Positions 1 to 40,706 of a DNA stretch of 64,000 bases are shown piece by piece; positions within the stretch are counted from its first letter, which is position 1; each line of letters opens with the position of its first letter. The translations under genes were made by a program, and so were the position numbers. This stretch comes from Lingula anatina (taxonomy: Eukaryota; Animalia; Brachiopoda): assembly GCA_051362555.1 (NCBI GenBank), contig CM120649.1, forward strand, positions 8,618,001-8,682,000, written 5' to 3'. The notes under the pieces are model-generated. The model had not been told where the DNA came from. It did not search any database and saw only the letters and a list, made by a program, of their open reading frames with translations.

Positions 1-802
1 AGCTTTGTTTATTGGAGAAAAATGATGAACTTCTGAGAGCTGTTTAAAAAAGAGATTAAAACCAAGTTTTCAGCTCACCTTATCTACACCTGAATGAAAT
101 TGACAGTTATATAAACACACGTCAATCATTACACTGATAAGTTAATATCATATATCACACGATTATTCGACTTACAACACTCAAATGACATTATATTTTA
201 TCTTATAACAGAAATGAAATTTAAAGTGATTGTTTTTTATTTCCCTGGGAAATGATATTTTAGCATAGGGGGCTCGGTCCATACGTAAAAACAACTTCAA
301 TACGAGGTATATTTTGACTTCTAGGCTGTCTCAACATGGTTGTGACGACAACCACAGAATTGATGGAAATGTGCTAGATGTGACAAGCCGTTGACCACTG
401 TAAATATGTACGTACAATAGGCCATAAAGTCACCATTTATCTCACTAAAGAATATCGTTAAAATTTTTTAATGAACGTCTCTTGGCAGGGTTGATTCAGC
501 AAGTCAAAGTCAACAGGGTATAATTTGCAAAACCTTGTTATTTCCAACTTACTTTCGAACTGGTCATTGTAAGTGTCGCCACTTTCTAAAAACATGTTTT
601 CTGTCACATTCAAAAAGGACATCTTTTTTTTTCAAAGTCAAATAAATTACGTTGTAGCTTGATACCACAATCTAACGTTAAATAAATCGCATGCAAAAGC
701 AACAAAGTCACAGACAGACTACACCTATTCCCTGTGCACCTACAGTAACTATGTCATTTTTCCTTGTATCCTCCAATGTCAAAATACAACTTTGAAGCTA
801 TT

Positions 803-804
803 AC

Positions 805-879
<75 letters not shown>
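803..879. repeat. (CA)n(GA)n microsatellite
   Basis: Directly visible dinucleotide runs. Confidence 0.95.
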
Positions 880-882
<3 letters not shown>

Positions 883-2756
883 ATGAGTTGCAGAAGATAC
901 AGGCATATTTAATTATGTCAATAACAATACCTTACGAAATTAAATGAAGGTGTAGATTGACACTTTAAATGGAATTGGTGACGGTAACTCATTCAAAATA
1001 CAGAACATGCCAGTATCAGTACTTGCACAAAAGTTTGAAAGCATCACAGAAGGATTATTGGTGAGGGGAGAGGGGGGGAGATTAGGGCCATCCGAGCAAA
1101 TTTACGTCTTAGAAGAACGCGAGCTTCAATGGAATAATTCTCGCCTGCAACGCGGACAGTCCGTGTTTGATTCCCAACAGATGCAAAATCTGTTAAACCG
1201 ACAACTATTTGGAAAAAACGATATGCATTAATCCTGTCTTTGGAAACGTATTCTTTGCACAAGGGAGTTTCCTGGGTAGAATACTTTATGGTACAGCAAC
1301 CATGGATATGTTTCTAAATGAATTACTGGGTGGCAGGCTTTGTCAGTGATACGCTTTTATAACTGTTCTCTAATAACTATAGAAACTTTTGTTGTTTGTT
1401 CTAAAAACTGCTTGCAAAAAAGAAGAACCCGAAACAGACCTCTTTTAAGGTGTTTTACTTCGATCAAGTGTAGTATAGTTGTTCTCAAAAATGGCACATG
1501 TTTGGCGCCAAAATAAATCATAGTTAGCATGTGGCCCACCCTAAATGTATGACTCAATTTTTGGAGCCCACCCCTAGCCTTTTAGTAGACAAAAAGAATG
1601 TAACTCACACCTACTGTTTCCGCCCCCCCTTCCCGGGTACTTTATTATTATTCCCTCAATAAAAATATATAGCAATCGCTTTTTATAAGTACCTCAGTAT
1701 TAGGAATCGATAATTCATAAAAAGGTAAATGGATACAGAATACATATATAAATAATCTTACAGTGTGTAGAGGGTACACGTTGTCTGCTCACTGGATAGG
1801 ACATACATGTGGAACACATTGGAGTAGATAGAGGGAGGGGGGCGTACTCTCAGGCCCTACTGGCTGTTACTAAATTCATCCCAGGAACGAATCGAGCAAT
1901 GGTTTGCAATAAGAAAAATATTCTCCAGGAAAATTTAATTTGGTAGCTCCAATTATATTTTACCGATAAAAATATTATCGAATGATTTAATATCAAAATA
2001 AAGATTAATTAAGATTGCCACCTTTGGAATCTTTGGTTTGAGCATCGATCACATCCTGTCAGCCTTATTACTGAAGACAATCTAATTTGCATATAAGAGA
2101 AAAATGCAGTTTTTTTGTTTGTTTTGGATTCATTACACATTTTTTCATAATTTTCAAATATAAATGTTCCTTTTTTACTGATACACTTATGAATATCTTA
2201 TCAATACGCGCAGTTTATTAGTTAAACAATCACAAATAACCATCATATCCCAAGTGTATATGACGTAATCTCTCCCAGGTCATAAAAGTGGTAAAATAGC
2301 GATGATTGCCGCCCAGCTGGTGAAGTAGGCCAATTGCCTGTATAATTCTCCCATACGGTTATCTATTTTTTCTAGTGTGGAACATTTAAGGGGGAAGACG
2401 GTGAGAGAACATTATCAAGTGACCAAAAGAATTGACATAAATAAAGTTACTGAAAGCAAAGTATATTGCAATATTTTACAAAGTTAAAAAAAGTGCCCCA
2501 ATTATTTAATTTCACAGTGTTCAATTTTGCAGATATCGTGAGACCTTTCTATTTCATCTGCCTCTCCCTAAAATGACGCTGCCCGCGTTAACTCTTCAAC
2601 TCCCGGGAAACGCAGAGCGCGTCGTGGCAGCATGAGAACGATGCGTAAACATAGGAGCTAGGAGGGTTAAGAGAGGGTTAATCCCCCCTCATACACACAC
2701 ATTTTCCAATCATCATGGTGGAGTAACATTGTAAAATTTCCCTCGGCTCCAGGGCG

Positions 2757-2893
2757 TATATAAAGATGGAAAGCTATGTGCTTGCAACACTATTTCTACC
2801 CGGCAACCGCGGGCACTTCTTGAGAACAATAAGTGGTTTACTCGTAGTGGACAGTGGTCAACAGGTCACGAAGAGAGCACTTGGGACACTCAG
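2757..2893 (+). promoter_or_regulatory. Candidate TATA promoter and short non-coding first exon of an unidentified + strand transcript
   Basis: TATATAAA at 2757-2764; CpG-richer upstream region; splice donor CAG|GTAAAC at 2893/2894, conserved in the duplicate (40843/40844). Confidence 0.45.
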
Positions 2894-3245
2894 GTAAACT
2901 GACCATTGGTGATGGGTCTGTCATCAGTTGTCAGAGGTCACTGTTAGTGTGTTGTATTTGCATTTTCATAGATTTTGTATCAATAGTTTGTATATGGTAT
3001 CATAATCAGTAATTTAATACCCGTGTATATAAAACCCAGTGAGAACAGAGGGATGAGTTACAGGGGCGGATCCAGGATTATTTAAAGGGGGAGGGTCCGT
3101 TTTTTAGGAATGACAGGCATGCAAAGCTGACCCTCGACCCCCCCCCCCTTCTCCACCCTCATTAGCGTGGGGTTGGGACCCCACTGAAGGGCTCTGAATT
3201 TTTTTTTTTTTGTATTTTAGAGGACCAACGGTGCTGTTTGGAAAT

Positions 3246-3344
3246 GTGTGAGAGAGAGAGAGAGAAAAAGAGAAAAACAGCCAGAAAGAGAAAAAGAAAC
3301 AGAGAGAGACTCAGAGTGAAAGAGCAAAAGAGAGAGAGAGAGAG

Positions 3345-3384
<40 letters not shown>
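3246..3384. repeat. (GA)n/(GT)n microsatellite
   Basis: Directly visible; it explains spurious ORF 3238-3492. Confidence 0.95.
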
Positions 3385-3387
<3 letters not shown>

Positions 3388-4143
3388 AACGAAAAGATTT
3401 CATTTTATCCACTAATTTGTATGGAAAAGACTACCGGTACTCTTGGAATAATTGTTTTAGAAAATGAAAAGGTTTGTGAATTTTGTCTTTAAGTGTCATG
3501 AAACCTAGGAAATATTACTGATGTGAACATTTCCCTTTTTTAAGAAGACCAAAATCAGCTGGGATTTTAAAATTGTTTTTATTAATTTGTTTTATACTTT
3601 TCAGTTAGAACTCATTTACCTCTAAGGATCTGAAGTAATTGGAATATTTCAAGCTGCCCAAATGTCTGAAGGCATTATGACCCGTTTTAAATAAAGCAAG
3701 ACAACTACAGGCCATGCTTGAAGCTCCTTATGAATACCACCATAATTACTGAAGACAGTGATTTCTTTCTGTATTTTTAAGTATCATATATAAACTGACA
3801 ATTGTTTCTCAGGAAAACTTGCCATGTCCAGACAAGGAAACATTTGCTTGGTACTGCACACCTTCTGTGACATTCCATTCCTTGATATTACAATTTTGGA
3901 TTAAGAAACTTGCATAATAAAAGAATTGGCATATCTATTTCATTTAAACGTGAAAATGCTGAAATGTAGAAGCAAAAATATAATACTCAGTAATTGAGCT
4001 GTTTTGGGGTAAGTGCATACCACTGCTCATTTATGTATCTATAGTTAAATGTTTTTTCAATGTAAAAGAAATAAAATAAGAAATGTGATTAAACATTTTG
4101 AGATAAATTAGCTAGCACTTGGATCAGGGAGTCAGAAACTTTG

Positions 4144-4303
4144 GTGCATTGTAATAAAGTAATTGATGTATAACTTCATTAATTGTGCATTGGAATAAAG
4201 TAATTGATGCAGTACTTTGTTTATTGTGCATTGGAATAAAGTAATTGATGTAGTACTTCATTTATTGTGCATTGGAATAAAGTAATTGATGTAGTACTTC
4301 ATT
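4144..4303. repeat. 41-bp minisatellite, about 4 copies
   Basis: GTGCATTGGAATAAAGTAATTGATGTAGTACTTCATTTATT recurs at 4144, 4185, 4226 and 4267. Confidence 0.9.
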
Positions 4304-5277
4304 TTAATATTGTAATTAAAGGTCAGTAGTAATAAGTACTTAGCAATGAGGTGATGCCTTTTTCATTATTGATATATATGTCTTATTGTTATAATTATTG
4401 TTATATCTCACACTACATTCATAAGTAAAGATGAATATAGCTATCTTGAGCATAATCAGGCGAAAAATAAAATAAAAATAAAATAACAATCCTGCTGTAA
4501 TTGGAAGATCAGCAGATTATAATGTTAGGGGCATGAAATGGATGTGAAATGTTTGTTAATAAATTTTTTAACATTGTGGTTGAGAGATTCCTGGGTTCAA
4601 AGCATTGTCTTTTTGCTGGAAAAGGTCCACTCTTAATCAGAATTTAATCTAGGCTCTTTTTCAACTTTGGACAACTATTGGGGTAAAAAAAAGCAACTTT
4701 TCAAAAAAAAAAAATTAACTCTTTGGAATTGCTGGCTTCTTGCCTGTTGTTTCAAATGAATTAAAATAAGAATGGCTATTATAATGCTAACTTAAACTTT
4801 TTAATTTAGAAAAGAAGGCAAAACAAAACTCATTTGATAACAGAAAATAAAATTTTTATTGTAAAACTAAGAGAATGATATACTGAAGTTTTTAAATTGA
4901 CTGCCACAGAGGTAAAAATACTCTAGTAGTTCTGCACTGTCCTCCCTGAAAAATAAGAAGATAAAAACATTAAAATATAATTCAGTTAAAATGTATTAGT
5001 TATTAAAAGGCAGCAATCCAACAACCACCAGGTCTTGGCTGCTATCATATAATAACTGCCGTCAAATACAATATTTACCAGTTGTTTGACATAGGTTGCC
5101 TCTTAAAAACCTTAACTTAGCTATGATGCCATCCAAAGAAGGAAGCAAACAAAATATCTTTCATATGACAGTAAAATTAATCTGTACTTTTGAAAATGAT
5201 GTCAAATTTTCCTAATTTTTTAATGTTTGAAGTGACAATTTTCATTAAATAATAATAATAATAATAATAATAACCAT

Positions 5278-5360
5278 TTATGTCCTTGACCTGCGCCTAA
5301 AGCAGGACGTAAAAAGATTAAATAATCTCCGCCACCGTGAAGGACGGCGATCCTTGGCTG
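5278..5360 (-). CDS. CBM20 gene terminal exon (AKDRRPSRWRRLFNLFTSCFRRRSRT*)
   Basis: tttatttcag| acceptor (NAGNAG); GC-rich island in AT-rich flanks; TAA at 5278-5280; minus-strand AATAAA at 4855-4860. Confidence 0.8.
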
Positions 5361-7228
5361 CTGAAATAAATGACAAAACATTACTCCATAAAATGCTATA
5401 ATATATTATAACCTTCAATATACAATTTGTGCACCATCTTATTTCATAAATAAATCAACATTGAAACACCTGTACCACTGTTAAGAATAATCAAATTTTG
5501 AATTTCAATTAATACTTGTCAAAAGTACAAATACTGTTTGCACAACAAGGAGTGTGTGTGTGTGTGTGTGCATGCAAGTGCATGCACAGTCACATTTTAA
5601 CACTGTAATAAGTAGATACCTATTATATAGACCCTGCCGTCTTACCTCTCTCCTTCACGTCCTCTATCACAATTTTTGTGTCTTTGACATTAACTGAAGA
5701 AAAAAATGGAAAACAAAATAATTCTGTCTATGAGCACAACAAGGATATCATACATAGACAAAGATACAATAATGAATAAGATCACCTAACAGTGAATTAA
5801 CACAATGATTGTGTATGAGAGCCTGCTTCTGTGTGTGTGTGTGTGTGTGTGTGTGTAAACTTTTTGGGTGTGTTTAAATGGACCTAACTTTCTTACCTAT
5901 TTTCTTGATATCCTCAGCAAGTGATACACTGTTTGCGACTTTAATGTCGGCTGAAGCGAAAAATATGGAATGGAAACCAAATGAAACAAAATCCATGTTC
6001 AAACAGAATTCGGGTACAAATACGGAATTACATTGGTGAAAACACATTCAAAGACATAATTCACTTAAAATAAATTTGGATCTTCTTAAGTATGCTAAAG
6101 ACAAGACTTTGGATAAGCAGCATGGTGTGCGTGTACTGTGTGAGAGTGCATGTTAGTGTGTGTGGACGCATGTGCATTACTGAGTTTCTGGTCTCACCTA
6201 TCTCCTCAATACTTTTAACAACTGTTAAAACTGTTGCATATTTCTTGTCTTTGGTATCAACTGAAAGAACAGAAGCAAATTTAAAGGAGTACAAATCATG
6301 TTCAATCTTAACACAGTAAAAGCATGAATTTTTCTGAAAATAAAGAGTGTGTGTGTGTGCAAGTGTGCACATGTGTAGATTTCATATGTGTATTTAAATA
6401 ATAAATATTTTACTGAGATTCCTGTCTTACCAGTCTCTCCAGTGTTAGGAGCCTTTACTCTGTTATCATCCTTGGTATCAACTGAAACAGAATAATTAAA
6501 ATGAAAGGGAATACAATTTATATTGAATCTAAGCTTAACATGTTACGTTACGGCAGTAGTAATGTAATAATACAGGTAAGTAAGAAACAAGAGGGGATGT
6601 GTTAGTCAGTTATATTTTTTTATTAATCTGATTGCATTCTGAAGTTTCCATGGAGTTTGTGCACATTAGCTAGGTAGACAAAATTGACCAAATTCATTGT
6701 GAATGGTCCCTGATAATCAACAGCTTCAAGGGTCAAGACTTGCACCCTGAGAGTTAAGGTGTTTGTAGTAAAAAACAATGATACTTTTACTTCAAGATTC
6801 CTTGCAAATAGTGAGAATGAACAAACACACCATGTAAATTGCTAAAATGAACTGAATTATTACCTGCAATTTGCTTACCACTGGTGTGGACTTCAGCTTC
6901 ATATGTGTAGTTAGACTCTGGAATAAGATGCATACATTTTTTGTTATTCACAAATTATGATATAGACATTGAGAATGAAATAGTCTAAATTTCATTTGAT
7001 AGAATTAAAGGGCCATTTCTTTCCATATCTTACATTTTATAGAATAATAATGTTAATTCGCCTTTCTTTCCATTAGATAGATTTAATAGAATTACAAGAC
7101 CTTTTATTTCCATGTCCAGTTCTCCCCATGTACAGGTCACTTCCATGCTGTCCTTGGTGGTCACCTGGAGGCACCTGTTCCTAAAGGGTTCAGGCTCCCA
7201 TATCCAGCCAGACCCAGGGTGGTAAGGC

Positions 7229-7259
<31 letters not shown>

Positions 7260-8284
7260 ATTGAAGATAAGTAGATGTCTGAAATGTAAAAGAAAATTCA
7301 AATGAAAAGATACATATATTTAAAATTTGACTAATCAAATACATTGTAATCTACAAGAAATGAATGAAGCTAAAAAAAAAAAAACACTTAAATTTGTTGA
7401 ACTTAGATTTTATTTTTCAATAAAAAGGAAAATTATTTTCATCTCAGTTCATTTGTCATTACAAATAAATTAATATATTATACTTACGTTTTGTGGTCTA
7501 ACAAACTTCCACTCTATATTTGCAGCCTTGGGCAGAAGAACTTCCGCCCTTAGAACAGGGACACCCAACTCGGTGCACCTAGCAAGATTTACACCACGTT
7601 GGGTGTCCCATGTTCCAAGGGCAGTTCCTCTGCCCACTGCTTTAGCTTTTAAGATATTGTCCTTTAGGACTATTCGAACAGTGGCCATGGCTGTTCAAAA
7701 TGAAACAGAAAATAGAAAGAAATCTTGTCAATATATCTTTTTGATGTTGTAATTGCAGACATTCAAATCACTCACTAAATATAAAAAAGGGATATATTGC
7801 ATTCTTATTATGAATAAGTAAGTCAATTTCTTTTTCATTTATTTAAGAACATTTAAAAGTATGCAAGAGCAGTTTAGGACAATGTATTGATTTGGTAGAA
7901 CATGTATTAGACTTGGTCCCCATACCTAGATCTATATCTTATATAGGATCAATCCATCCCCAAGAGGTTTCTCCCTAAATTACAATCAACTTAAGCAGCT
8001 GAGATGTGTGTCAGAAGCTGCGAGGGGGATATTAATGATCATTTAGCACCTTCAGTAGGAGTGGCAGACATCTAGACGCTTAAGATGAAAGCAATTTTGG
8101 GAGAAACCCCTTGGAGATGGATCGGCCCTGTTAGATCGATCTAGGTATGGGAACTCAGTCTATGACTCATACAGTGTACAGCCTGATTATATATAAGAAT
8201 AACTTCTCGTGCATGCACGCACACACACAACTTACGAGCACACTGCTCTTCTTTGTTATTTTCAATTTCCATATTAACTGACAT
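5278..8284 (-). CDS. CBM20 (starch/glycogen-binding domain) protein, 9 coding exons, about 238 aa
   Basis: Exons 8236-8284, 7488-7690, 7101-7227, 6879-6917, 6431-6481, 6198-6260, 5897-5950, 5646-5693, 5278-5360. All are GT-AG bounded, phases are compatible, and the 717 nt are open to TAA. The translation has CBM20 hallmarks G..LGTWD..., IEWKFV, WEPEPFRNR and C-terminal TW. Confidence 0.88.
5646..6917 (-). CDS. CBM20 gene: five symmetric phase-1 micro-exons (39, 51, 63, 54, 48 nt)
   Basis: Each is bounded by (t/c)cag| and |gt(a/g)ag. They encode SNYTYEAEVHTS, VDTKDDNRVKAPNTGET, VDTKDKKYATVLTVVKSIEEI, ADIKVANSVSLAEDIKKI and VNVKDTKIVIEDVKER. Confidence 0.8.
7101..7227 (-). CDS. CBM20 gene exon 3, C-terminal half of CBM20 (PYHPGSGWIWEPEPFRNRCLQVTTKDSMEVTCTWGELDMEIK)
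   Basis: tttatttag| acceptor, phase 0 in and phase 1 out; WE..NR motif. Confidence 0.88.
7488..7690 (-). CDS. CBM20 gene exon 2, N-terminal half of CBM20
   Basis: tttgaacag|CCATGG ... CAAAAC|gtaagt; ORF 7470-7688 reads MATVRIVLKD..GTALGTWDTQRGVNL..LPKAANIEWKFV. Confidence 0.9.
7910..8160. mobile_element. Foldback MITE with TA flanks in a CBM20 gene intron
   Basis: Long imperfect inverted arms (CCCATACCTAGATC.. / ..GATCTAGGTATGGG), TA on both sides; related copies near 25089-25335 and 63100-63183. Confidence 0.8.
8236..8284 (-). CDS. CBM20 gene coding exon 1 (MSVNMEIENNKEEQCA)
   Basis: ttgcttgcag|ATG ... GCTC|gtaagt; joins in frame to the next exon. Confidence 0.75.
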
Positions 8285-8509
8285 CTGCAAGCAAAAAATC
8301 AAATCATACTTTAACATGTTCCAATAACAGATTTCAGTTGCATCTTTCTTTTGTAGTGATACACACCATTATATTAATTGGGATTATCAGCAAAAAATTG
8401 ACGTTGTGTAACAGGAAATTCTCCAAAATTTCATTTAGAATAAATTTATCATATAAAAAAACCTGGATACAAACTTTCATGGTCAATTTTGAACAAAAAT
8501 TTAACTTAC

Positions 8510-8630
8510 CAGCTACTGTGCAATATTATATCTTTGCTTTGTTTACTAAAACAATAAACAGGAATAATTACTGTATAAAGAAATTTGATTGGGCGGCTCC
8601 TGTATTGTTCCTTAACTTTAAACCAATAGG
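8510..8630 (-). promoter_or_regulatory. Candidate 5' UTR exon and CCAAT/GC-box promoter of the CBM20 gene
   Basis: Minus-strand donor CTG|GTAAGT at 8510/8509; ATTGG plus GGGCGG at about 8588-8596 and CCAAT at 8623. Confidence 0.45.
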
Positions 8631-8699
8631 AATGGCGCTGTTTTAACGGTCTCGACGTGACTTTCTCTGCTTTACAAATCCACTATATCACACACAACT

Positions 8700-10345
8700 G
8701 GAGCCTGGATATCCTGTGTAAGATTCTTAATGCCTCCATCCTTGCACGTTTTTTTTAGGAAGCAGGCGATGAACCTCTTTCTCTGACTGATATCGGTTGG
8801 GGTGTATGGTGCAAACCCAAAGTCTCACCTCTTGCACAGCGCCATCTATACTCGATGTTAACATGGTGTCAGCGAAAGGTGAAGATGAAAAACCGAAAAT
8901 TTCATCCAACTTTCTGTACACTGGATGTCATCTTCAGTCAGGGCATTCTGAAATGCCATGATTATAAAACGTCATTAGGATAAAACATTTGAAATGAAGG
9001 ATACGTATGTGATATCGACTGTGTCAGTTGTTCACTGTTCACATCACGATGCAATGTGCTTGTCACAATGTGACGATAACACGATTTATAGACCGTTGGC
9101 TGCAGATAATAAGTGCTTTTGGAAAACAGACGAGATTGAATGCCGTCATCCACTTTAACTTTTTCATCTGTAATGATGCAACATTTTGCGATGGCAGGTG
9201 AGATGATTTATTATAAATCAAGCACAACTGACGTTGTGTCTTCTTTTATGAATACAATTTCCTATTGTTCTTCTTGAGTCATCTGAAGAGTTCCAACGCA
9301 AAATGATCGCCGACAGGGTTCCTGTAAATACCCGAAACATAATCATCAACGACCTATATGCTCTTTTGCGCTCCCAGACTGAAGACGACAGGGACATCAG
9401 CTACAGCAGAGAAGTATGGATCCCGACTGATAGGAATATTACTAATGAAAATTTGAACATCAGATTGTTGGCTGAATGGAACGATAATTGACGCTCGTCA
9501 TGATATAATTAAACACCAATTCCCGCTTCCAGAAGGACTCTAGTCTTGTTCACTGGCAGTACAGTTAGATTTCAAACGTCACAAAAATCAATTTATCCAA
9601 ATTATAAACCGAACACCAGACAGTGGAACACATTTTCTCACAGTTTCAAACATCGGGTGTGCCCCAGATCTGGTGAATATATGCGATTCCTCTTTCAGTG
9701 ACATTCCAACCATGGAAAAAATGTGCATTGCAACATTGATAGCACCATCATCAAGAACTCTACAAATTAACGTTTTGGACGTAACCCAACAAAATAACAA
9801 CTAGTAAACTACAATTGCGGTCTGTACGCCCTAGTGAATATGGTTACCTTGGCGCACAGCAAAGATCCAACAACCATGGAAGTATGACCACAAAAAACTT
9901 TGTTCACATTTTTTTTTTGTTTAAAATGACGTCATCTATTGCTTTTCCTATAACAAGCAGGCGTAAAATTAAAAATCATATTAAAAAAAACTCCCTTGTG
10001 ACCAATTTATACTGTGAATGCCACCTGCCAGATACACACACCCTGAATGTCATTTGTGATGGTTGCAATAAAGAATACCATCCTCTATGTATAGGTACAA
10101 CAGACGATGACGTCCTAAAACAAGATGGCATGTATTGTACAAAGTGCACAAAAAGCAGGCAATAATCATAATAATAATAATAACCCAATATATTTATATT
10201 TGTCTTGTTTTTCTTTTAGCATTACATAGATAATGTTCCCTTGTTTCACAATGTATTAAATACACGTTCCGCTTTTTACTGTATTCCGCATTTTAGTCTG
10301 TTCCACTGTTCCGTTGTTCTGGTTTTCTGTCTTTTAGTTTCTGCC
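8700..10345 (+). pseudogene. Decayed DNA-transposon gene: Ulp1-like (C48) cysteine protease plus PHD finger
   Basis: About 9500-9860 translates KHQFP..GL*..FIQIINR..GTHFLTVSNIGC..ICDS..QQ..(shift)NCGLYAL, giving the His/Asp/Gln/Cys residues. ORF 9815-10165 ends in a PHD (YCEC..CDGC..YH..C..YCTKC). Stops and frameshifts are present. TTCCG-rich terminus ends in CTGCC at 10345. Ulp1+PHD is a known cargo of Mutator/Ginger1-type transposons. Confidence 0.75.
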
Positions 10346-10370
10346 ATCACTAACATGTATTAGCACAACC

Positions 10371-10471
10371 CAGGGGCAGATCCAGAGATATTTTCTGAGA
10401 GTCTTCAAAATCATGTTTGTTGATCCATCCTCCATTCTGAAGACCCAGAAGACGGCCTAAATCTGCCCCTG
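10371..10471. mobile_element. hAT-like MITE (CAGGGGC.GAT TIR)
   Basis: TIR CAGGGGCAGAT/ATCTGCCCCTG; flanks CAACC/CTACC; same family as 60964-61131. Confidence 0.75.
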
Positions 10472-10727
10472 CTACCGTCCTGAGTTTCAGTGACCACAGG
10501 AAATCCACCTGTCTTCTGTATTACCAGCACTGGTATAGTAGTATATGCCTCGGCTGTAACCAACAACAACACTTTATTTTGTTAGATAATTTTTTACACA
10601 TTCCTTCACGCTTTATTTGTTGAACGAAAGTAATAAATTGTCAATACTCTCAGACTCTGGAACTTTCTGTGGAAAATTCCTGACCACTGAGTTTTTTATC
10701 TCTTCCAGTCCATCATCTGACTTAAGT

Positions 10728-11902
10728 CTACTACACTGTACTAGGAGACACAGGACTATACTGACACAATGGAATACAATGACTCCAGACTACTACACTG
10801 TACTAGGATACACAGGACTATACTGACACAATGGAATGCAATGACTCCAGACTACTACACTGTACTAGGAGACACAGGACTATACTGACACAATGGAATG
10901 CAATGACTCCAGACTACTACACTGTACTAGGAGACACAGGCCTATACTGACACAATGGAATACAATGACTCCAGACTACTACACTGTACTAGGAGACACA
11001 GGCCTATACTGACACAATGGAATACAATGACTCCAGACTACTACACTGTACTAGGAGACACAGGCCTATACTGACACAATGGAATACAATGACTCCAGAC
11101 TACTACACTATAATAGGAGGCACAGGCCTATACTGACACAATGGAATACAATGACTCCAGACGGCTACACTGTACTAGGAGACACGGGACTATACTAACA
11201 CAATGGAATACAATGACTCCAGAATACTACACTGTACAAGGAGACACGGGACTATACGGACACAATGGAATACAATGATTCCATACTACTTCACTGTATT
11301 AGGAGACACAGGACTATACTGCCACAATGGAATACAATGACTCCAGACTACTACACTGTACTAGAAGACAAAGGACTATACTGACACAATGGAATACAAT
11401 GACTCCAGAATACTACACTGTACTAGGAGGCACAGGGCTATACTGACACAATGGAATACAATGACTCCAGACTACTACACTGTACTAGGAGACACAGGAC
11501 TATACTGCCACAATGGAATACAATGACTCTAGACTACTACACTATACTAGGAGGCACAGGACTATACTGACACAATGGAACACAATGACTCCAGACTACT
11601 ACACTGTACTAGGAGACACAGGCCTATACTGACACAATGGAATACAATGACTCATGACTACTACACTACGAGGCACAGGACTATACTGACACAATGGAAT
11701 ACAATGACTCCAGACTACTACACTGTACTAGGAGACACAGGACTATACTGACACAATGGAATACAATGACTCATGACTACTACACTGTACTAGGAGACAC
11801 AGGACTATACTGACACAATGGAATACAATGACTCCAGACTACTACATTGTACTAGGGGGCACAGGACTATACTGCCACAATGGAACACATTACCTCCAGA
11901 CT
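10728..11902. repeat. 62-bp minisatellite, about 19 copies
   Basis: GACTACTACACTGTACTAGGAGACACAGGACTATACTGACACAATGGAATACAATGACTCCA repeated with period 62. Confidence 0.97.
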
Positions 11903-12878
11903 AATTTTCAAAATGGTCAAGTAACAACATAAGATTCATTTATTAAATGTTCTTCCGTAGATCACATTGTATTCTGGATCTTTTAATATTTCAGTGAATT
12001 TTTGAATCTGTAGTGCTGTAGTATAAAGCTTAATTTGTACAAATTTCTGAAGCATTAGACCAGATTTGACAAAATTATTAATGTATAACTATTTCAAGTC
12101 ATGTAATTTTCAATTTTCTCAGTTATATTGTTCTTTTTAAGAGTGGCCTTACCACGAAAAAGCAGGCAGTGAAAGACAGCACCAAGAGCAGCACCAAGAG
12201 CAGCTATTTTAAATCATGGAGTTTGCCAGTGTTTTTAGTGTAATTTTCATTTTTCTCAAATATATCGTCCATAGAAAATACTTTTCGTTAGACGCAGTCA
12301 ACTGATCAGCGTATCACAGATTTATATTGTTGTTAAGCATTATTTGTGCAAATTTCAGAATCATTGGACAAGATTTGTCCAAATTATTAATATTTAACTA
12401 TTTTAAGTCATGGAATTTGCCAGTGTTTTCAGTTTAATTTTCATTTTTCTTAAATATATTGTCCATAGAAAATACTTTTCGTTAGACACACAGTCAACTG
12501 ATCAGATTATCACAGACTTTTATTGTTCTTAAGCATCATTTGTACAGATTTTAGAAACATTGGATGAGATTTGACAAAATTATTAACGTTTAACTATTTT
12601 AAGTCATGGAATTTGCCAGTGTTTTCAGTTTAATTTTCATTTTTCGCAAATATATCGTCCATAGAAAATACTTTTCGTTAAGCACACAGTCAACTGATCA
12701 GATTATCACAGACTTTTATTGTTATTAAGCATCATTTGTGCAAATTTCAGAAAAATTGGAAAAGATTTGACAAAATTATTTACGTTTAACTATTTTAAGT
12801 CATGGGGTTTGCCAGTTTTTTTCAGTGTAATTTCAGTTTTCTGAAGTTTATTGTTCTTTCTTTCTAGAGTACCCTTAC

Positions 12879-15800
12879 CATGAAAAAGGAGGCAGTGAAA
12901 GACAGCATCAAGAGAAGAACTATGTCTTATCCATGTGTACAATACATGACAAGTGGCAAGATTTAGGACATTGTCAAATATTGTGCTAACAACAACCCAT
13001 TCCAGAAGCCCATTGTAAGGAGTAATCTGCATCTGACATTTATAGTAAGGAGGTGTCTTGTATGTGTATATATTGTTTTCCAGATGACAGCTATAGGTAA
13101 CTTAAAACCTCCTACACAAACAAGCTCAAATCATCACATTTTCTTTTTTCTTTGATAGTAAACAATACATTTCAATATTGAAATATTTGTTTTGGTCAAT
13201 TCTCACACTTCTGATTATCAATTTCCGATAAACTTGGCACTTAAAAAAGACAGTCAACTGATTAGCTTACCACAGATTTTTATTGTTGTTAAGCATCTTT
13301 TGTGCAAATTTTAGAAGTATTGGACAAGATTTGACAAAATTATTAACGTTTAACTATTTTGAGCCTTGAAATTTGCCAGTGTTTTTGTTGTAGTTTTCTG
13401 TTTTTCGAATATATTGCCCCAAAGAACACTTTTCATTTGACATTGACAACTGATCAGCTTATCACAGAATTTTATTGTTGTTAAGCATCATTTGTACAGA
13501 TTTTATAAACATTGGATGAGATTTGACTAAATTATTAACTTTTAACTATTTTAAGTCATGAAATTTGCCAACTTATATTCAGTGTAATTTTGAGTTTTCT
13601 CTAATATATCGTCCAAAGAAAATACTTTTCGTTAGACACAGTCAACTGATCAGCTTATCACAGATTTTTATTGTTGTTAAGCATCATTTGTGCAAATTTC
13701 AGAATCATTGGACAAGATTTGTCCAAATTATTAATATTTAACTATTTTAAGTCATGGAATTTGCCAGTGTTTTCAGTTTAATTTTCATTTTTCTCAAATA
13801 TATTGTCCATAGAAAATACTTTTCGTTAGACACACAGTCAACTGATCAGATTATCACAGACTTTTATTGTTCTTAAGCATCATTTGTACAGATTTTAGAA
13901 ACATTGGAAAAGATTTGACAAAATTATTAACGTTTAACTATTTTAAGTCATGGAATTTGCCAGTGTTTTCAGTTTAATTTTCATTTTTCGCAAATATATC
14001 GTCCATAGAAAATACTTTTCGTTAAGCACACAGTCAACTGATCAGATTATCACAGACTTTTATTGTTATTAAGCATCATTTGTGCAAATTTCAGAAAAAT
14101 TGGAAAAGATTTGACAAAATTATTTACGTTTAACTATTTTAAGTCATGGGGTTTGCCAGTTTTTTTCAGTGTAATTTCAGTTTTCTGAAGTTTATTGTTC
14201 TTTCTTTCTAGAGTACCCTTACCATGAAAAAGGAGGCAGTGAAAGACAGCATCAAGAGAAGAACTATGTCTTATCCATGTGTACAATACATGACAAGTGG
14301 CAAGATTTAGGACATTGTCAAATATTGTGCTAACAACAACCCATTCCAGAAGCCCATTGTAAGGAGTAATCTGCATCTGACATTTATAGTAAGGAGGTGT
14401 CTTGTATGTGTATATATTGTTTTCCAGATGACAGCTATAGGTAACTTAAAACCTCCTACACAAACAAGCTCAAATCATCACATTTTCTTTTTTCTTTGAT
14501 AGTAAACAATACATTTCAATATTGAAATATTTGTTTTGGTCAATTCTCACACTTCTGATTATCAATTTCCGATAAACTTGGCACTTAAAAAAGACAGTCA
14601 ACTGATTAGCTTACCACAGATTTTTATTGTTGTTAAGCATCTTTTGTGCAAATTTTAGAAGTATTGGACAAGATTTGACAAAATTATTAACGTTTAACTA
14701 TTTTGAGCCTTGAAATTTGCCAGTGTTTTTGTTGTAGTTTTCTGTTTTTCGAATATATTGCCCCAAAGAACACTTTTCATTTGACATTGACAACTGATCA
14801 GCTTATCACAGAATTTTATTGTTGTTAAGCATCATTTGTACAGATTTTATAAACATTGGATGAGATTTGACTAAATTATTAACTTTTAACTATTTTAAGT
14901 CATGAAATTTGCCAACTTATATTCAGTGTAATTTTGAGTTTTCTCTAATATATCGTCCAAAGAAAATACTTTTCGTTAGACACAGTCAACTGATCAGCTT
15001 ATCACAGATTTTTATTGTTGTTAAGCATCATTTGTGCAAATTTCAGAATCATTGGACAAGATTTGTCCAAATTATTAATATTTAACTATTTTAAGTCATG
15101 GAATTTGCCAGTGTTTTCAGTTTAATTTTCATTTTTCTCAAATATATTGTCCATAGAAAATACTTTTCGTTAGACACACAGTCAACTGATCAGATTATCA
15201 CAGACTTTTATTGTTCTTAAGCATCATTTGTACAGATTTTAGAAACATTGGAAAAGATTTGACAAAATTATTAACGTTTAACTATTTTAAGTCATGGAAT
15301 TTGCCAGTGTTTTCAGTTTAGTTTTCATTTTTCGCAAATATATCGTCCATAGAAAATACTTTTCGTTAAGCACACAGTCAACTGATCAGATTATCACAGA
15401 CTTTTATTGTTATTAAGCATCATTTGTGCAAATTTCAGAAAAATTGGAAAAGATTTGACAAAATTATTTACGTTTAACTATTTTAAGTCATGGGGTTTGC
15501 CAGTTTTTTTCAGTGTAATTTCAGTTTTCTGAAGTTTATTGTTCTTTCTTTCTAGAGTACCCTTACCATGAAAAAGGAGGCAGTGAAAGACAGCATCAAG
15601 AGAAGAACTATGTCTTATCCATGTGTACAATACATGACAAGTGGCAAGATTTAGGACATTGTCAAATATTGTGCTAACAACAACCCATTCCAGAAGCCCA
15701 TTGTAAGGAGTAATCTGCATCTGACATTTATAGTAAGGAGGTGTCTTGTATGTGTATATATTGTTTTCCAGATGACAGCTATAGGTAACTTAAAACCTCC

Positions 15801-17887
15801 TACACAAACAAGCTCAAATCATCACATTTTCTTTTTTCTTTGATAGTAAACAATACATTTCAATATTGAAATATTTGTTTTGGTCAATTCTCACACTTCT
15901 GATTATCAATTTCCGATAAACTTGGCACTTAAAAAAGACAGTCAACTGATTAGCTTACCACAGATTTTTATTGTTGTTAAGCATCTTTTGTGCAAATTTT
16001 AGAAGTATTGGACAAGATTTGACAAAATTATTAACGTTTAACTATTTTGAGCCTTGAAATTTGCCAGTGTTTTTGTTGTAGTTTTCTGTTTTTCGAATAT
16101 ATTGCCCCAAAGAACACTTTTCATTTGACATTGACAACTGATCAGCTTATCACAGAATTTTATTGTTCTTAAGCATCATTTGTACAGATTTTAGAAACAT
16201 TGGATGAGATTTGACAAAATTATTTATGTTTAACTATTTTAAGTCATGAAATTTGCCAACTTATTTTCAGTGTAATTTTGAGTTTTCTCTTATATATTGT
16301 CCAAAGAAAATACTTTTCGTTAGACACAGTCAACTGATCAGTTATCACAGATTTTTATTGTTGTTAAGCATCACTGGTGCAAATTTCAGAAGTATTTGAC
16401 AAGATTTGACAAAATTATTAACGTTTAACTATTTTGAGCCATGGAATTTGCAAGTGTTTTTATGGTAGTTTTCCGTTTTTCGAAATATATTGCCCCAAAG
16501 AACAATTTTCATTTGACACTAACAACTGATCAGCTTATCACAGATTTTTATTGTTATTAAGCATCATTTGTGCAAATTTCAGAAACATTGGACAAGACTT
16601 GTCAAAATTATTAACATTTAACTATTTTAAGTCATGGAATTTTCCAGTTTTTATTTCAGTGTAATTTTCAGTTTTCTGATGTTTATGTTCTTTCTTTCCA
16701 GAGTACCCTTACCATAAAAAAGCAGGCAGTGAAAGACAGCATCAAGAGAAGAACTATGTCTTATCCATGTGTACAATACATGGCATGTGGCAAGATTTAG
16801 GACATTGTCAAATATTGTGCTAACAACAACCCATTCCAGAAACCGTTTGTAAGGAGTACTCTGCATCTGACATTGATAGTAAGGAGGAGTCTTGTATGGG
16901 TGTATATTGTTTTCCAGATGACAGTTATAGGTAACTTGCAACCTCCTACACAAACAAACTCAAATCATCACATTTGCTGTTTTCTTTGATAGTAAATAAT
17001 ACATTGTAATATTGCAATATTTGTTTTGGTCAATTCTCACACTTCTGATAATCAATTTCCAATAAACTTGGCACTTAAAAAATCACAGTCAACTGATTAG
17101 CTTATCACAGATTTTTATTGTTGTTAAGCATCATTTGTGCAAATTTCAGAAGTATTTGACAAGATTTGACAAAATTATTAACGTTTAACTATTTTGAGCC
17201 ATGGAATTCGCCAGTGTTTTTATGGTAGTTTTCCGTTTTTCGAAATATATTGCCCCAAAGAACAATTTTCATTTGACACTAACAACTGATCAGCTTATCA
17301 CAGACTTTTATTGTTGTTAAGCATCATTTGTACAGATTGTAGAAACATTGAATGAGATTTGACAAAATTATTAACGTTTAACTATTTTAAGTCATGGAAT
17401 TTGCCAACTTATATTCAGTGAAATTTTTAGTTTTCTCTAATATATTGTCCGAAGAAAATACTTTTCGTTAGACACAGTCAACTGATTTTTATTGTTATTA
17501 AGCATCATTTGTGGAAATTTCAGAATCATTGGACAAGATTTGACAAAATTATTAACGTTTAACTATTTTAAGTCATGGAATTTTCCAGTTTTTATTTCAG
17601 TGTAATTTTCAGTTTTCTGAAGTTTATTGTTCTTTCTTTCCAGAGTACCCTTACCATAAAAAAGCAGGCAGTGAAAGACAGCATCAAGAGAAGAACTATG
17701 TCTTATCCATGTGTACAATACATGGCATGTGGCAAGATTGAGGACATTGTCAAATATTGTGCTAACAACAACCCATTCCAGAAACCCATTGTAAGGAGTA
17801 ATCTGCATCTGACATTGATAGGAAGGAGGAGTCTTGTATGGGTGTATATTGTTTTCCAGATGACAGTTATAGGTAACTTGCAACCTC
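12879..17887 (-). pseudogene. Five copies of a 233-nt exon-like segment, possibly from an UNC-93-like MFS transporter
   Basis: Copies at 12879-13111, 14223-14455, 15567-15799, 16713-16945 and 17655-17887, each bounded by tttgtgtag| and |gtaagg. One frame reads RLLLTMGFWNGLLLA..YCTHG*DIVLLLMLSFTACFFM, resembling the UNC93A pattern C-T-x-G-x3-V-x3-M-x2-F-x-A (from memory). Stops are present. Confidence 0.4.
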
Positions 17888-18184
17888 CTACACAAACAAA
17901 CTCAAATCATCACATTTGCTGTTTTCTTTGATAGTAAATAATACATTGTAATATTGCAATATTTGTTTTGGTCAATTCTCACACTTCTGATAATCAATTT
18001 CCAATAAACTTGGCACTTAAAAAATCACTGTCAACTGATTAGCTTATCACAGATTTTTATTGTTGTTAAGCATCATTTCAGAAGTATTTGACAAGATTTG
18101 ACAAAATTATTAACGTTTAACTATTTTAAGTCATGGAATTTTCCAGTTTTTATTTCAGTGTAATTTTCAGTTTTCTGAAGTTTA

Positions 18185-21078
18185 TTGTACCACCAGCGTA
18201 GGCGCTGGCGGTACCCATGGTTTTGGTCCCGACCCATATGTTCCGCCGGCTCCTGCGGCTCCGCCGGCTCCTGCGGCTCCGCCGCCAAGTCACCGTTACC
18301 GCTTCTCCTCCTAGACGGTAAGGGCCCCTGTACCCATCTCTTGGATTTAGGTCACCTATAATCTCAACTCGTTCCACGTAAAATTTGGGCTTTGTTGGTA
18401 TTGGGGTCTAGGTGTGGCACTCATTGCAATGCACCCTTGTCTAAAAATGGCAAAATTAAATGCTAATTATCTACCCTACGGAAGGAGTTATGGGAAAAAT
18501 TTCTACAGACAGCTTTCCAAAAGTCATATGTGTAGATTTCAAAGATGCCCTTGGATTTGACCTTTGACCTTTATTTCAAGGTGAAACGGGCCAAAATTTT
18601 CAAAAAAATGAAATTTTTTACGAAAAAAATTTTTTTTTCCCTGTTATTCAGATACCACACAGACTTAACCAATAATATTATTGGAAAGTGTAACCCTTCG
18701 TGTCATCTTTCATCTCTGTGAATTTGGGGTCAATCGGTGCATTTTCACGGGAGTAGCGGCCATAAAGTACCGAAACTGAAAACTGTCTCTAATTCGGGAA
18801 CCGTTAATGCTAGAGACCCATTCTTTTTTGCATTTTGTAGAGCATGTAAAGCCCAACACTAGAAGTGGTCTCCGTTTTTTGTATTCCATACGGTTTTCAA
18901 GTTACGCTGTATCAAAAAGTACATATTGGTCGTGAAAGCAAAATGTGCAGTACGGTAATGGATAATAAATTTTGAACTCTGGAAAAATAATACATAAGGC
19001 TTGGCAAAGCAGACAACTTGTGGTCAAAAATGACTTCGGAGCACCCCCCATTTCAAGAATTTTGACCAAAATGATGTTTTCTTTATTTTAATTAATCTTT
19101 TCTGTAGGAAATTTATGGCACATTATGGTAACTCCAAAATTATAACATTTAGTCCCTTATAACTCCAAAACTGGCAGAGATAGGTCCAAAGTTACTATTG
19201 AAGTTGAATAGGAAGTCATATACTGGCAATCCAAATGTGACCTTAAAATTGACCTTTGACTTACTTTTCACCATGAACTGAACTTTGCAAATTTTTCTTC
19301 CCTTTTATCTCCAAAACTGGCAGAGATATGTCCATAGTTACTATTGAAGTTGAATGGGAAGTCATATACTGGCAATCTAAATGTGAACTTAAAATTGACC
19401 TTTGTCTTACTTTTCACCATGAACTGAACTTTGCAAATTTTGCTTCCCTTTTATCTCCAAAACTGGCAGAGATTGGTCCATGGTTACTGTTGAACATGAA
19501 TAGGAAGTCATATACTGGCAATCTAAATGTGACCTTAAAATTGACCTTTGACCTATTTTTCACCATGAATTGAACTTTGCAAATTTTGCTTCCCTTATAT
19601 CTCCAAAACTGGCAGAGATAGGTCCATAGTTTTTATTGAACTTGAATGGGAATTCATATACTGGCAATCTAAATGTGACCTTGAAATTGACCTTTGACCT
19701 ACTTTTCACCACTTTGCAAATTTTGCTTCCCCTATATTTCCAAAACTGGCAGAGATAGGTCCATAGTTACTATTGAAGTTGAATAGGAAGTCATATACTG
19801 GCAATCTAAATGTGACCTTAAAATTGACCTTTGACCTACTTTTCACCATGAACTGAACTTTGCAAATTTTGCTTCCCTTTTATCTCCAAAACTGGCAGAG
19901 ATAGGGCCATAGTTACTATTGAACTTGAATAGGAAGTCATATACTGGCAATCTAAATGTGACCTTGAAATTGACCTTTGACCTACTTTTCACCATGAACT
20001 GAACTTTGCAAATTTTGCTTCCCTTTTATCTCCAAAACTGGCAGAGATATGTCCATAGTTACTAATGAAGTTGAATAGGAAGTCATAACTGGCAATCTAA
20101 GTGTGACCTTAAAATTGACCTTTGACCTACTTTTCACCGTGAACTGAACTTTGCAAATTTTGGTTCCCTTTTATCTCCAAAACTGGCAGAGATAGGTCCA
20201 TAGTTACTATTGAAGTTGAATAGGAAGTCATATCCTGGCAATCAAAATGTGACCTTGAAATTGACCTTTGACCTTTCACCATGAACTGAACTTTGCAAAT
20301 TTTGTTTCCCTTTTATCTCCAAAGTTACGCTGTATCAAAAAGTACATATTGGTGGTGAAAGCAAAATGTGCAGTACTGTAATGGATAATAAATTTTGAAC
20401 TCCGGAAAAATAAAACATAAGGCTTGGCAAAGCAGACAACTTGTGGTCAAAAATGACATTATTTCATCAAATTTGAACATCTGGAACTTGGGAGCACCCC
20501 CCATTTCAAGAATTTTGACCAAAATGACCTTTTCTTTATTTTAATTAATTTCTTCTGTAGGAAATTTATGGCACATCATGGTAACTCCAAAATTATAACA
20601 TTTAGTCCCTTATTTCTCCAAAACTGGCAGAGATAGGTCCATAGTTAGTATCGAAGTTGAATAGGAAGTCATATACTGGCAATCCAAATGTGACCTTGAA
20701 ATTGACCTTTGACCTACTTTTCACCATGAACTGAACTTTGCAAATTTTGGTTCCCTTTTATCTCCAAAACTGGCAGAGATAGGTCCATAGTTACTATTGA
20801 AGTTGAATAAGAAGTCATATACTGGCAATTTACTGTGACCTTGAAATTGACCTTTGACCTACTTTTCACCATGAACTGAACTTTTGATGTACCATTTTTA
20901 GTCATATATGTTTTTTTGCATATTTTGAAAATTCTTGTTGATTGCATTTTTACAGCTTGTCAAGCACAAGACTGGTGGCTGTGTCCCTTATTTTGTGTAT
21001 GTGGGGGTTTATACGAATGCGCTTGCTCCAGCTGGTGGTACAATATTCGGAGGCGGTATCGCCTCCTTGATCCTCTAG
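18185..21078 (+). mobile_element. Non-autonomous Helentron/Helitron2-type element (HINE/DINE-like), copy 1, with internal 146-bp tandem repeats
   Basis: Sub-terminal IR TTGTACCACCAGC/GCTGGTGGTACAA, 5' palindrome, (CCGCCGGCT)n microsatellite, 3' stem-loop GAGGCGGTATCGCCTC and CTAG end; no TSD (A|T or T|T site in the satellite); internal duplication of about 18900-19260 at about 20325-20710. Confidence 0.88.
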
Positions 21079-21352
21079 TTGTTCTTTCTTTCCAGAGTAC
21101 CCTTACCATAAAAAAGCAAGCAGTGAAAGACAGCAGCAAGAGCAATATTGCAATATTGAAATATTTGTTTTGGTCAATTCTCACACTTCTGATTATCAAT
21201 TTCCAATAAACTTAACACTCAAAAAAAGACACAGACAACTGATCAGCTTATGACAGATTTTTATTGTTGTTAAGTATCATTTGTAAAAATTTCAGAAATA
21301 TTTGACAAGATTTGACAAAATTATTAATGTTTAACTATTTTAAATCATTTAA

Positions 21353-39000: not shown

Positions 39001-40644
39001 AGTATAACTTTAACTTGCACAAAAGTTTGAAAGCATCACGGAAGGATTATTGGGGAGGGGGGGGGGGGGTGCGGCAGGGCCATCCAGGCAAATTTACGTC
39101 TTAGAAGCACGCGAGCTTCAATGGAATAATGCTCGCCTGCAACGCGGGCAGTCCGTGTTTGATTCCTAACAGATGCAAAATCTGTTAAACTGACAACTAT
39201 TTTGAAAAAATGATGTGTATTAATCCTGTCTTTAGAAACGTATTCTTTGCACAAGGGAGTTTCCTGGGTAGACTACTTTATGGTACGGCAGCTATGGATA
39301 TGTTTGTAAATATATTACTGGGTGGCAGGCTTTGTCAGTTATACGCTTTTATAACTGTTCTCTAATAAATACAAGAAACTTTTGTTGTTTGTTTTAAAAA
39401 CTGCTTGTAAAAAAGAAGAACCAGAAACAGACCTCTTTTAGATTGTTTTACTTCGACCAAGTGTAGTATTGTTGTTCTCAAAAATTGCACATAGTTGGTG
39501 CCAAAATAAATCCTAGTTAGCATGTGGCCCATCCTTAATGCATGGCTCAATTTTTGGGGCCCACCCCTAGTCTTTTAGTAGACCAAATGAATGTAACCCA
39601 TCCCTACTGTTTCCGCCCCCCCCCCGGTACTTTATTATCATTCCCTCAATAAAGATAGGCCTATATAGAAATCGCTTTTTATAAGCACCTCAATATTAGG
39701 AATCGTTAATTCATAAAAAGGTAAAGGGATACAGAATACATATATGAATAATCTAACAGTGTGTAAAGGGTACACGTTGTCTGCCCACTGGGAAGAGTAC
39801 TCTCAGGCCCTTCTGGCTGTTACTAAATTCATCCCAGGAACGAGTTCGCAATAAGAAAAAAATTCTCCAGGAAAATCTCCAGGAAAGTCATATTTTTACT
39901 GATAAAAATATTATCGAATGATTTAATATCATAATAAGGATTAATTAAGATCGCCACCTTTGGAATCTCTAGTTTGAGCATCGCTTCCTGTCAACTTTAT
40001 TACTGAAGACAATCTAATTTGCATATAAGAGAAAAATGCAGTTTTTTGTTTGTTTTGGGTTCAATACACATTTTTTCATAATTTTCAAATATAAATGTTC
40101 CTTTTTCACTGAAACACTTATGAATATTTTATCACTACGCGCAATTTATTAGTTAAACAATCACAAATAACCATCATATCCCAAGTGTATATGACGTAAT
40201 CTCTCCCAGGTCATAAAAGTGTAAAATAGTGATGATTGCCGCCCAGCTGGTGAAGTAGGTCAATTGCCTGTATAATACTGCCATACGATTATCGATTTTT
40301 TCTAGTGTGGAACATTTTAGGGGGAAGATGATCAGAGAACTTGATCAAGTTACCAAAAAATATTTGACATAAATAAAGTTACTAAAAGCAAAGTATATTA
40401 CAATATTTTAGAAAGTTGAAAAACGGATCCCAATTCTTTAATTTCACAGTGCACATATTTTGCAGATATCGTGAGACATTTCTATTTCATCTGCCTCTCC
40501 CTAAAATGGCGCTGACCTCGTTAACTCTTCAACTCCCGGGAAATGCAGAGAATCCAGCACGTTGTGGCAGCATGAGAACCGATACGTACACATAGGAGCT
40601 GTGGTGAGTTAAGAGAGGGTTAATTCCTCGGCTCCAGGGCGTAA

Positions 40645-40706
40645 TAGCACGAAAATTCATGCGTTAGCACTCCTATTGACGATTCTGATATGTACTGTCT
40701 GTGCTA
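40645..40706. mobile_element. 62-bp mini insertion with 6-bp TIR and 10-bp flanking direct repeat
   Basis: CAGGGCGTAA-[TAGCAC...GTGCTA]-CAGGGCGTAA; absent from copy 1 at about 2750-2760. Confidence 0.8.

What the first reader, a model, noticed from the sequence alone, without database searches (positions are those of the whole stretch)
5278..8284. Hidden CBM20 gene with an architecture inverted relative to STBD1: N-terminal CBM20, repeat linker, C-terminal basic amphipathic tail
Seen: nine GT-AG exons splice to an open 238-aa protein that the ORF track misses. Established: animal CBM20 proteins are mainly STBD1/genethonin-1 (N-terminal membrane anchor, C-terminal CBM20), laforin (CBM20 plus phosphatase) and GPCPD1 (CBM20 plus GDPD). 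This protein has no catalytic domain and no N-terminal TM; it ends in RRPSRWRRLFNLFTSCFRRRSRT, a polybasic/hydrophobic helix with a Cys. Inference: a lineage-specific glycogen-to-membrane tether, possibly S-palmitoylated. Site-1-type residues (LGxW, K, WE, NR) are kept, while the Trp of the usual PxW motif is Leu (PVL), suggesting one-site binding.
Basis: partly seen in the sequence, partly recalled or inferred. Interest (0 to 1): 0.8.

Follow-up and report, generated by a model that had tools for sequence, protein, structure and literature searches.

The report
Brachiopod glycogen-binder with membrane-type tail
This is a real, spliced lamp-shell (Lingula) gene for a starch/glycogen-binding-type domain, whose near-identical copies are already in a published survey of invertebrate STBD1-like proteins; its one undescribed part is a short basic tail that likely anchors it to membranes.

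Summary
The nine minus-strand exons are real and give an open 238-aa protein. Exon 2 alone passes Pfam's CBM_20 cut-off, and a paralogue's model has the CBM20 fold. One of four RNA runs shows the three introns leading to the tail. The gene is not hidden: RefSeq holds Lingula anatina models about 91% identical, one with the same tail. The 'inverted' layout is not new either. Ren et al. 2026 (PMC12913940) named single N-terminal-CBM20, anchor-less, non-catalytic proteins STBD1-alpha, counted three in Lingula, and their alignment holds these RefSeq proteins. What that paper's main text does not mention is the tail: a basic amphipathic helix with a Cys, present in 3 of 6 Lingula copies. Yeast Atg45 uses the same plan (N-terminal glycogen-binding domain, AIM, C-terminal membrane-binding helix). 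Best reading: a divergent, Lingula-restricted glycogen adaptor that likely reaches membranes through its tail. Membrane binding, palmitoylation, glycogen binding and orthology to oyster STBD1 are untested.

The parts
8829..8864 (-). Upstream coding exon used by the RefSeq copies (12 aa), donor GTGAGA
   Evidence: tblastn of XP_023932861.1 residues 1-12, 100%; donor; no reads laid here
8510..8660 (-).
   Evidence: motifs; inference only
8236..8284 (-). Exon 1 of the finding: acidic N-terminal leader; ATG directly follows an AG acceptor
7488..7690 (-). Exon 2: first two thirds of CBM20, with site-1 Trp and Lys
   Evidence: Pfam CBM_20 27 bits; 97-99% to RefSeq copies
7101..7227 (-). Exon 3: rest of CBM20 (WE, NR, final Trp); weak donor
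6864..6917 (-). Exon 4: linker; two in-frame donors, 6879 (finding) and 6864 (RefSeq)
6431..6481 (-). Exon 5: linker repeat, phase 1-1
   Evidence: loose ends of 11 reads from exon 6; 76% alike to exon 6 acceptor region over 62 nt
6198..6260 (-). Exon 6: linker repeat holding the only AIM-like YxxV outside CBM20 and tail
5897..5950 (-). Exon 7: linker repeat
   Evidence: spliced reads on both sides
5646..5693 (-). Exon 8: linker repeat
   Evidence: spliced reads on both sides
5278..5360 (-). Exon 9: basic amphipathic tail (10 K/R, 1 acidic, Cys at -8, RRxS at -23 and -6) and stop
   Evidence: 9 junction reads; hydrophobic moment 0.785, 253 of 10000 shuffles reach it

Best explanation
An expressed Lingula gene family encodes a non-catalytic protein with an N-terminal CBM20 predicted to bind glycogen, a repeat-exon linker, and a C-terminal basic amphipathic helix that likely binds membranes, so it would work as a glycogen-to-membrane adaptor of the STBD1-alpha/Atg45 type. 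Shown: gene structure, CBM20 membership and fold, spliced transcripts to the tail, amphipathic pattern. Inferred: glycogen binding through site 1 only; tail insertion into an anionic membrane, possibly fixed by S-acylation of the Cys and loosened by phosphorylation at RRxS; delivery of glycogen to autophagic membranes, perhaps aided by the YxxV motif.
For: CBM_20 above cut-off, no second domain. Paralogue model (pLDDT 72, domain about 80-90) matches STBD1 CBM20 8x8k at Z 11.8, rmsd 1.9, 92 aligned, tied with GPCPD1 and glucoamylase. Site-1 Trp, Lys, Trp, Asn invariant in 4 of 4 Lingula CBM20 copies, matching STBD1 W293/K322/W334/N339. No transmembrane stretch (max 19-residue hydropathy 1.0) and tail moment 0.785; W, L, F, L, F, C, F on one helix face. 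Tail kept in 3 of 6 copies (window, P0002, P0012). Oyster STBD1 of this layout binds glycogen and GABARAPL2 (PMC12913940). Atg45 needs a C-terminal amphipathic helix plus AIM (PMC11145338).
Against: The three tail-bearing copies are close (22-26 of 27 identical), so conservation says little; 3 of 6 models (P0001, P0003, P0004) lack the tail, though P0003's end begins like read-through of the exon-8 donor. The single YxxV is chance-level (59% of shuffles give one or more) and sits in a basic context. Of STBD1's second site (H271, Y272, R333, W355), needed for full glycogen binding, only the Trp appears kept, by register. No mollusc or vertebrate STBD1 appeared at E<=0.001, so orthology to oyster STBD1 is not shown. 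Depth on the exons is only 6-13 in one run.
Confidence: 0.45

Rival explanations
1. Ordinary soluble STBD1-alpha: a cytosolic glycogen receptor like the oyster protein, with a tail that has no membrane role (for example a nuclear signal or a calmodulin/protein-binding helix).
For: Same layout as STBD1-alpha; RefSeq copies are in that paper's alignment and Lingula is given three such genes. 3 of 6 copies lack the tail. Two arginine clusters about 9 residues apart and a W/F-anchored basic helix also fit nuclear-signal and calmodulin-binding patterns (recalled, not tested).
Against: Tail amphipathy exceeds 97.5% of shuffles and the Cys lies on the hydrophobic face; the tail is a spliced exon of its own.
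Confidence: 0.27
2. An independent Lingula-specific CBM20 family, not an STBD1 orthologue, acting as a membrane-proximal glucan sensor or scaffold outside autophagy (immune-type, as proposed for the RNF213 CBM20, or glycogen positioning at the cell cortex).
For: Only Lingula proteins score strongly; next hits are algal, protist or unnamed at E 6e-10 to 1e-3. By eye, mollusc STBD1-alpha share WKW...RWEE.NR...PWN, which a fifth Lingula protein (XP_023931029.1) resembles more than this gene does; the paper's trimmed alignment puts exon-1 residues in the first-strand columns for these three proteins (against the model). Several young copies with variable repeat exons. RNF213 CBM20 precedent (passages).
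Against: The paper states that lophotrochozoan and chordate STBD1 form one clade; EWK and final Trp are shared with STBD1; lowest rmsd of the top three structural matches is to STBD1. No test of selection was possible.
Confidence: 0.2
3. A decaying, lowly used duplicate whose CBM20 no longer binds glucan well.
For: Both described second sites look degenerate; some RefSeq copies are partial (P0004, P0012); low depth.
Against: Open frame across 9-10 exons; CBM20 is 103 of 106 identical to two copies while the linker is 54 of 71 and 77 of 92, which points to constraint on the domain; site 1 invariant even in a 42%-identical paralogue.
Confidence: 0.08

Closest known systems
Lophotrochozoan STBD1-alpha (Ren et al. 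2026, PMC12913940; oyster LOC105333128)
   Same: Single N-terminal CBM20, no N-terminal hydrophobic anchor, no catalytic domain, site-1 W/K/W/N, Y/F-type AIM candidates; the RefSeq copies XP_023933041.1, XP_023932861.1 and XP_023930636.1 are in the paper's alignment and Lingula is credited with three such genes.
   Different: Very divergent CBM20 (no mollusc hit at E<=0.001), lacks the R before the site-1 Trp and the EE after it; repeat-exon linker; basic amphipathic Cys tail, which the main text does not mention. Whether oyster STBD1 has such a tail could not be checked.
Yeast Atg45 (PMC11145338)
   Same: N-terminal glycogen-binding domain, downstream YxxL/V motif, C-terminal amphipathic helix; in Atg45 the helix binds membranes and works with the AIM.
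   Different: Atg45 has a CBM48-like domain, not CBM20; no homology claimed; the Lingula tail is strongly basic and has a Cys; nothing is tested in Lingula.
Vertebrate STBD1/genethonin-1
   Same: CBM20 fold (8x8k, Z 11.8, rmsd 1.9) and site 1; glycogen domain plus membrane-targeting end; mouse Stbd1 is lipid-modified (N-myristoyl; PMC5358331 abstract).
   Different: Reverse order; transmembrane N-terminus absent; no WxxV AIM; site 2 mostly lost.
Laforin and GPCPD1
   Same: N-terminal CBM20 with site 1.
   Different: No phosphatase or GDPD domain; the transcript reaches a stop in exon 9.

Membership tests
CBM20 (PF00686) | Score above Pfam gathering cut-off | tested here: met
   27 bits for window exon 2; 30.7, 32.5, 33.3 for three RefSeq copies; cut-off 23.3; P0004 falls short at 21.3
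CBM20 (PF00686) | Beta-sandwich fold | tested here: met
   Model of paralogue P0003 (83 of 106 identical in the domain): Z 12.4, 12.2, 11.8 to glucoamylase, GPCPD1 and STBD1 CBM20
CBM20 (PF00686) | Site-1 Trp, Lys, Trp, Asn | tested here: met
   W56, K90, W106, N113 invariant in 4 of 4
CBM20 (PF00686) | Fungal/bacterial site 2 aromatics (PxW Trp and two Tyr; residue list recalled) | tested here: not met
   PVL aligns to PLW of 1ac0; not required for membership
STBD1-alpha | Single N-terminal CBM20, no other domain | tested here: met
   definition
STBD1-alpha | No N-terminal hydrophobic domain | tested here: met
   max 19-residue hydropathy 1.0
STBD1-alpha | Placement in the STBD1 clade | tested here: inconclusive
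   Paper counts 3 in Lingula; that these are the three copies is my inference from five Lingula rows; tree file was cut; no own tree, as no mollusc STBD1 was retrieved
STBD1-alpha | Y/F-x-x-L/V/I AIM binding Atg8 | tested here: inconclusive
   One YxxV in the linker, chance-level; absent from P0003
STBD1-alpha | Glycogen binding and starvation-linked turnover | not testable with these tools
   bench assay needed
Vertebrate STBD1 (beta) | N-terminal membrane anchor with C-terminal CBM20 | tested here: not met
Vertebrate STBD1 (beta) | Second site H271/Y272/R333/W355 | tested here: not met
   By register K38/D39/I105/W130: 1 of 4 kept; read by eye, not from a residue-level structural alignment
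Laforin | Dual-specificity phosphatase domain after CBM20 | tested here: not met
   No such Pfam hit; stop in spliced exon 9
GPCPD1 | GDPD domain after CBM20 | tested here: not met
   a separate GPCPD1-like Lingula row is
Atg45 (yeast) | CBM48-like glycogen-binding domain | tested here: not met
   Domain is CBM20; Atg45 is an analogue, not the family
Atg45 (yeast) | C-terminal amphipathic helix that binds membranes | tested here: inconclusive
   Amphipathy computed; binding not tested
RNF213-type CBM20 | CBM20 within a giant AAA+/E3 protein, or closest to its domain | tested here: inconclusive
   Protein is short and ends in exon 9; kinship of the domain was not resolved

The most novel reading that the evidence does not exclude
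Lingula independently built an Atg45-like glycogen receptor from a CBM20 that is not the oyster STBD1 orthologue, adding a repeat-exon spacer and an S-acylated, RRxS-phosphorylation-switched basic helix, so that glycogen is docked to and released from membranes by a kinase-controlled switch: a third, convergent solution beside vertebrate STBD1 and yeast Atg45.
Probability: 0.12. Interest if true: 0.6.

Novelty: new variant of a known kind. Interest (0 to 1): 0.3.

Why it matters
Ren et al. argue that invertebrate STBD1 lacks a membrane anchor and binds glycogen as a free protein. A member with a C-terminal membrane helix would be an exception and would show convergence with yeast Atg45, suggesting that glycogen receptors repeatedly need a direct membrane contact. 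It would also test whether 'STBD1-alpha' is one orthologous group or a layout reached several times. The reach is narrow: one brachiopod family, no experimental system.

Tried and rejected
No whole genome is held, so copy number and synteny could not be checked. No RNA holder was listed by index; raw-read runs were added by species label, and X4, X7, X8 gave 0 reads, which is no test. Single-sequence fold of P0002 was useless (pLDDT 35). Three word-based searches returned only Lingula proteins: 2 of 113, 3 of 37, 5 of 3489 candidates. P0006 is a repeat-driven chance hit; P0010 has a look-alike tail in an unrelated low-complexity protein at E 1e-3, so the motif may arise often. Atlas search with linker plus tail gave no usable hit. 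RNF213 is not among the listed fold matches, which does not exclude it. Gene transfer from algae or protists was considered from the order of hits and dropped: scores are weak and lifted by repeated domains. A downstream catalytic exon: only 2 stop-free stretches of 30 codons or more follow a strong acceptor below 5278, neither examined further. Rfam found nothing in 1-12000. Literature searches for Lingula with glycogen, CBM20 with palmitoyl, and glycogen CBM with amphipathic helix (listings only) showed no paper on this tail. Earlier scan notes: none.

Full report
Observation. The finding lies on the minus strand of an AT-rich animal window. Nine exons with AG/GT ends splice to 717 nt and an open 238-aa protein with the stated tail. 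No ORF of 100 aa or more holds it, as expected for short exons. Exon 2 alone hits Pfam CBM_20 at 27 bits against a cut-off of 23.3.

Annotation. Exon 2 is 97-99% identical to two RefSeq proteins named as Lingula anatina. XP_023933041.1 (257 aa) has the same layout and a tail identical at 26 of 27 positions; XP_023932861.1 (206 aa) stops after exon 6. Both start on an exon at 8864-8829 and use the lower exon-4 donor, which in this window gives 255 aa, 91% identical to each. The window copy is identical to none. Three more Lingula models belong here: XP_023930636.1, XP_013391095.1 and the CBM20-less fragment XP_013420440.1. Alleles and paralogues cannot be told apart.

Expression. Four runs were laid on 3400-6320. 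Run X1 (about 6 in 100 of it read) gave 658 reads; X4, X7 and X8 gave none. X1 shows introns 6, 7 and 8 with 8, 10 and 9 reads, all in minus-strand sense, and 11 loose ends that continue into exon 5. Two further joints carry letters that, read by eye, fit the XP_023933041.1 version, so at least two versions are expressed. Most reads are 95-99% alike, so this exact copy is not proved active. Exons 1-5 have no read test here; the CBM20-to-tail link rests on the exon 5-6 ends and the RefSeq model.

Domain. A model of paralogue XP_023930636.1 from a 9-row alignment has pLDDT of about 80-90 over the domain and under 50 after residue 131. It matches glucoamylase, GPCPD1 and STBD1 CBM20 at Z 12.4, 12.2 and 11.8, a tie, with STBD1 at rmsd 1.9 over 92 residues. 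Site-1 W56, K90, W106, N113 (255-aa numbering) are invariant in 4 of 4 copies with the domain. PVL stands against PLW of the Aspergillus domain. STBD1 uses a different second site, H271/Y272/V273/R333/W355 (PMC11406230, passages); by register only the Trp is kept. One-site binding is therefore a fair inference, and binding may be weaker than in STBD1.

Linker and tail. Exons 4-8 are short phase-1 exons; exons 5 and 6 share 76% over 62 nt, the others show no DNA match. The linker is less conserved than the domain. The tail has 10 K/R and 1 acidic residue, a best 11-residue hydrophobic moment of 0.785 reached by 253 of 10000 shuffles, and no transmembrane stretch exists. The Cys sits at -8 on the hydrophobic face in 3 of 3 tail copies; RRxS occurs at -23 in 3 of 3 and at -6 in 2 of 3. 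Reading RRxS as a PKA-type site is recalled knowledge. 3 of 6 models lack the tail. The one AIM-like YxxV in the linker is chance-level.

What is known. Ren et al. 2026 (PMC12913940; I read parts 1-4 of 10 of the main text, search passages, supplementary files 1, 5 part 6, 6 part 1 and passages of files 3 and 6) show that oyster STBD1 has an N-terminal CBM20, no hydrophobic anchor, binds glycogen and GABARAPL2, and they name the type STBD1-alpha. Their table gives Lingula three STBD1-alpha, one STBD1-related and one GPCPD1; their alignment holds five Lingula rows, three being copies of this gene. That those three are the STBD1-alpha is my inference. The main text has no hit for Lingula, brachiopod, palmitoyl or amphipathic. 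Yeast Atg45 (PMC11145338, passages) has an N-terminal glycogen-binding domain, an AIM and a C-terminal amphipathic helix that binds membranes and aids glycophagy. RNF213 is a further animal CBM20 protein (PMC11549300, passages). PMC5358331 was seen as abstract and outline, the Spiralia preprint as three passages.

Orthology is open. A full HMMER search of 1.84 billion representatives gave 8 hits at E<=0.001: two Lingula, four algal, protist or unnamed CBM20 proteins, two without CBM20; no mollusc or vertebrate STBD1. By eye, the mollusc signature fits Lingula XP_023931029.1 better than this gene, and the published trimmed alignment fills the first-strand columns of these three proteins with exon-1 residues. 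The tree could not be read. So it works like STBD1-alpha and Atg45 and meets STBD1-alpha's layout, but clade membership is not shown here.

Verdict. Real gene, known layout, known to RefSeq and present in a 2026 survey. The tail is the one undescribed part and gives a testable Atg45-like tether model at about 45%. New variant of a known kind; interest 0.3.

Noticed in passing
window about 2785-2891 and 3602-4180, + strand: A spliced plus-strand transcript converges on the CBM20 gene: depth up to 309 in run X1, far above the gene's 6-13, loose ends tie 3602 to an exon ending at 2891 (GT-AG), and a second, more common first-exon variant exists. Longest ATG ORF 26 codons, no Rfam hit; 2501-2976 has a 78% copy at 40433-40930. 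Looks like a multi-copy non-coding RNA.
   Followed up: partly
window 53944-58569, - strand: Ty3/Gypsy-like element with one open 1328-aa frame (RT, RNase H, integrase), identical 149-bp direct repeats with TG...CA ends and a 5-bp target duplication: a very recent insertion with unusually short LTRs.
   Followed up: partly
window 53050-53548 and 59017-59513: About 500-bp inverted repeats, 97.8% alike, with internal tandem units, enclose the Gypsy-like element: probably a DNA-transposon-type element that received the insertion.
   Followed up: partly
window 10510-10554, - strand: The last exon of RefSeq model XP_023932861.1 matches here (93%), upstream of the gene, although in that model it follows exon 6: a tandem partial copy, a repeat or an assembly quirk in the other scaffold.
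   Followed up: partly
window 10728-23841: Large tandem arrays just upstream of the gene: 62-bp x 19, about 196-bp x 17, and two 146-bp arrays.
   Followed up: no
window 7908-8162: Intron 1 holds an inverted repeat about 72% alike, with short matches elsewhere in the window: likely a small mobile element.
   Followed up: no
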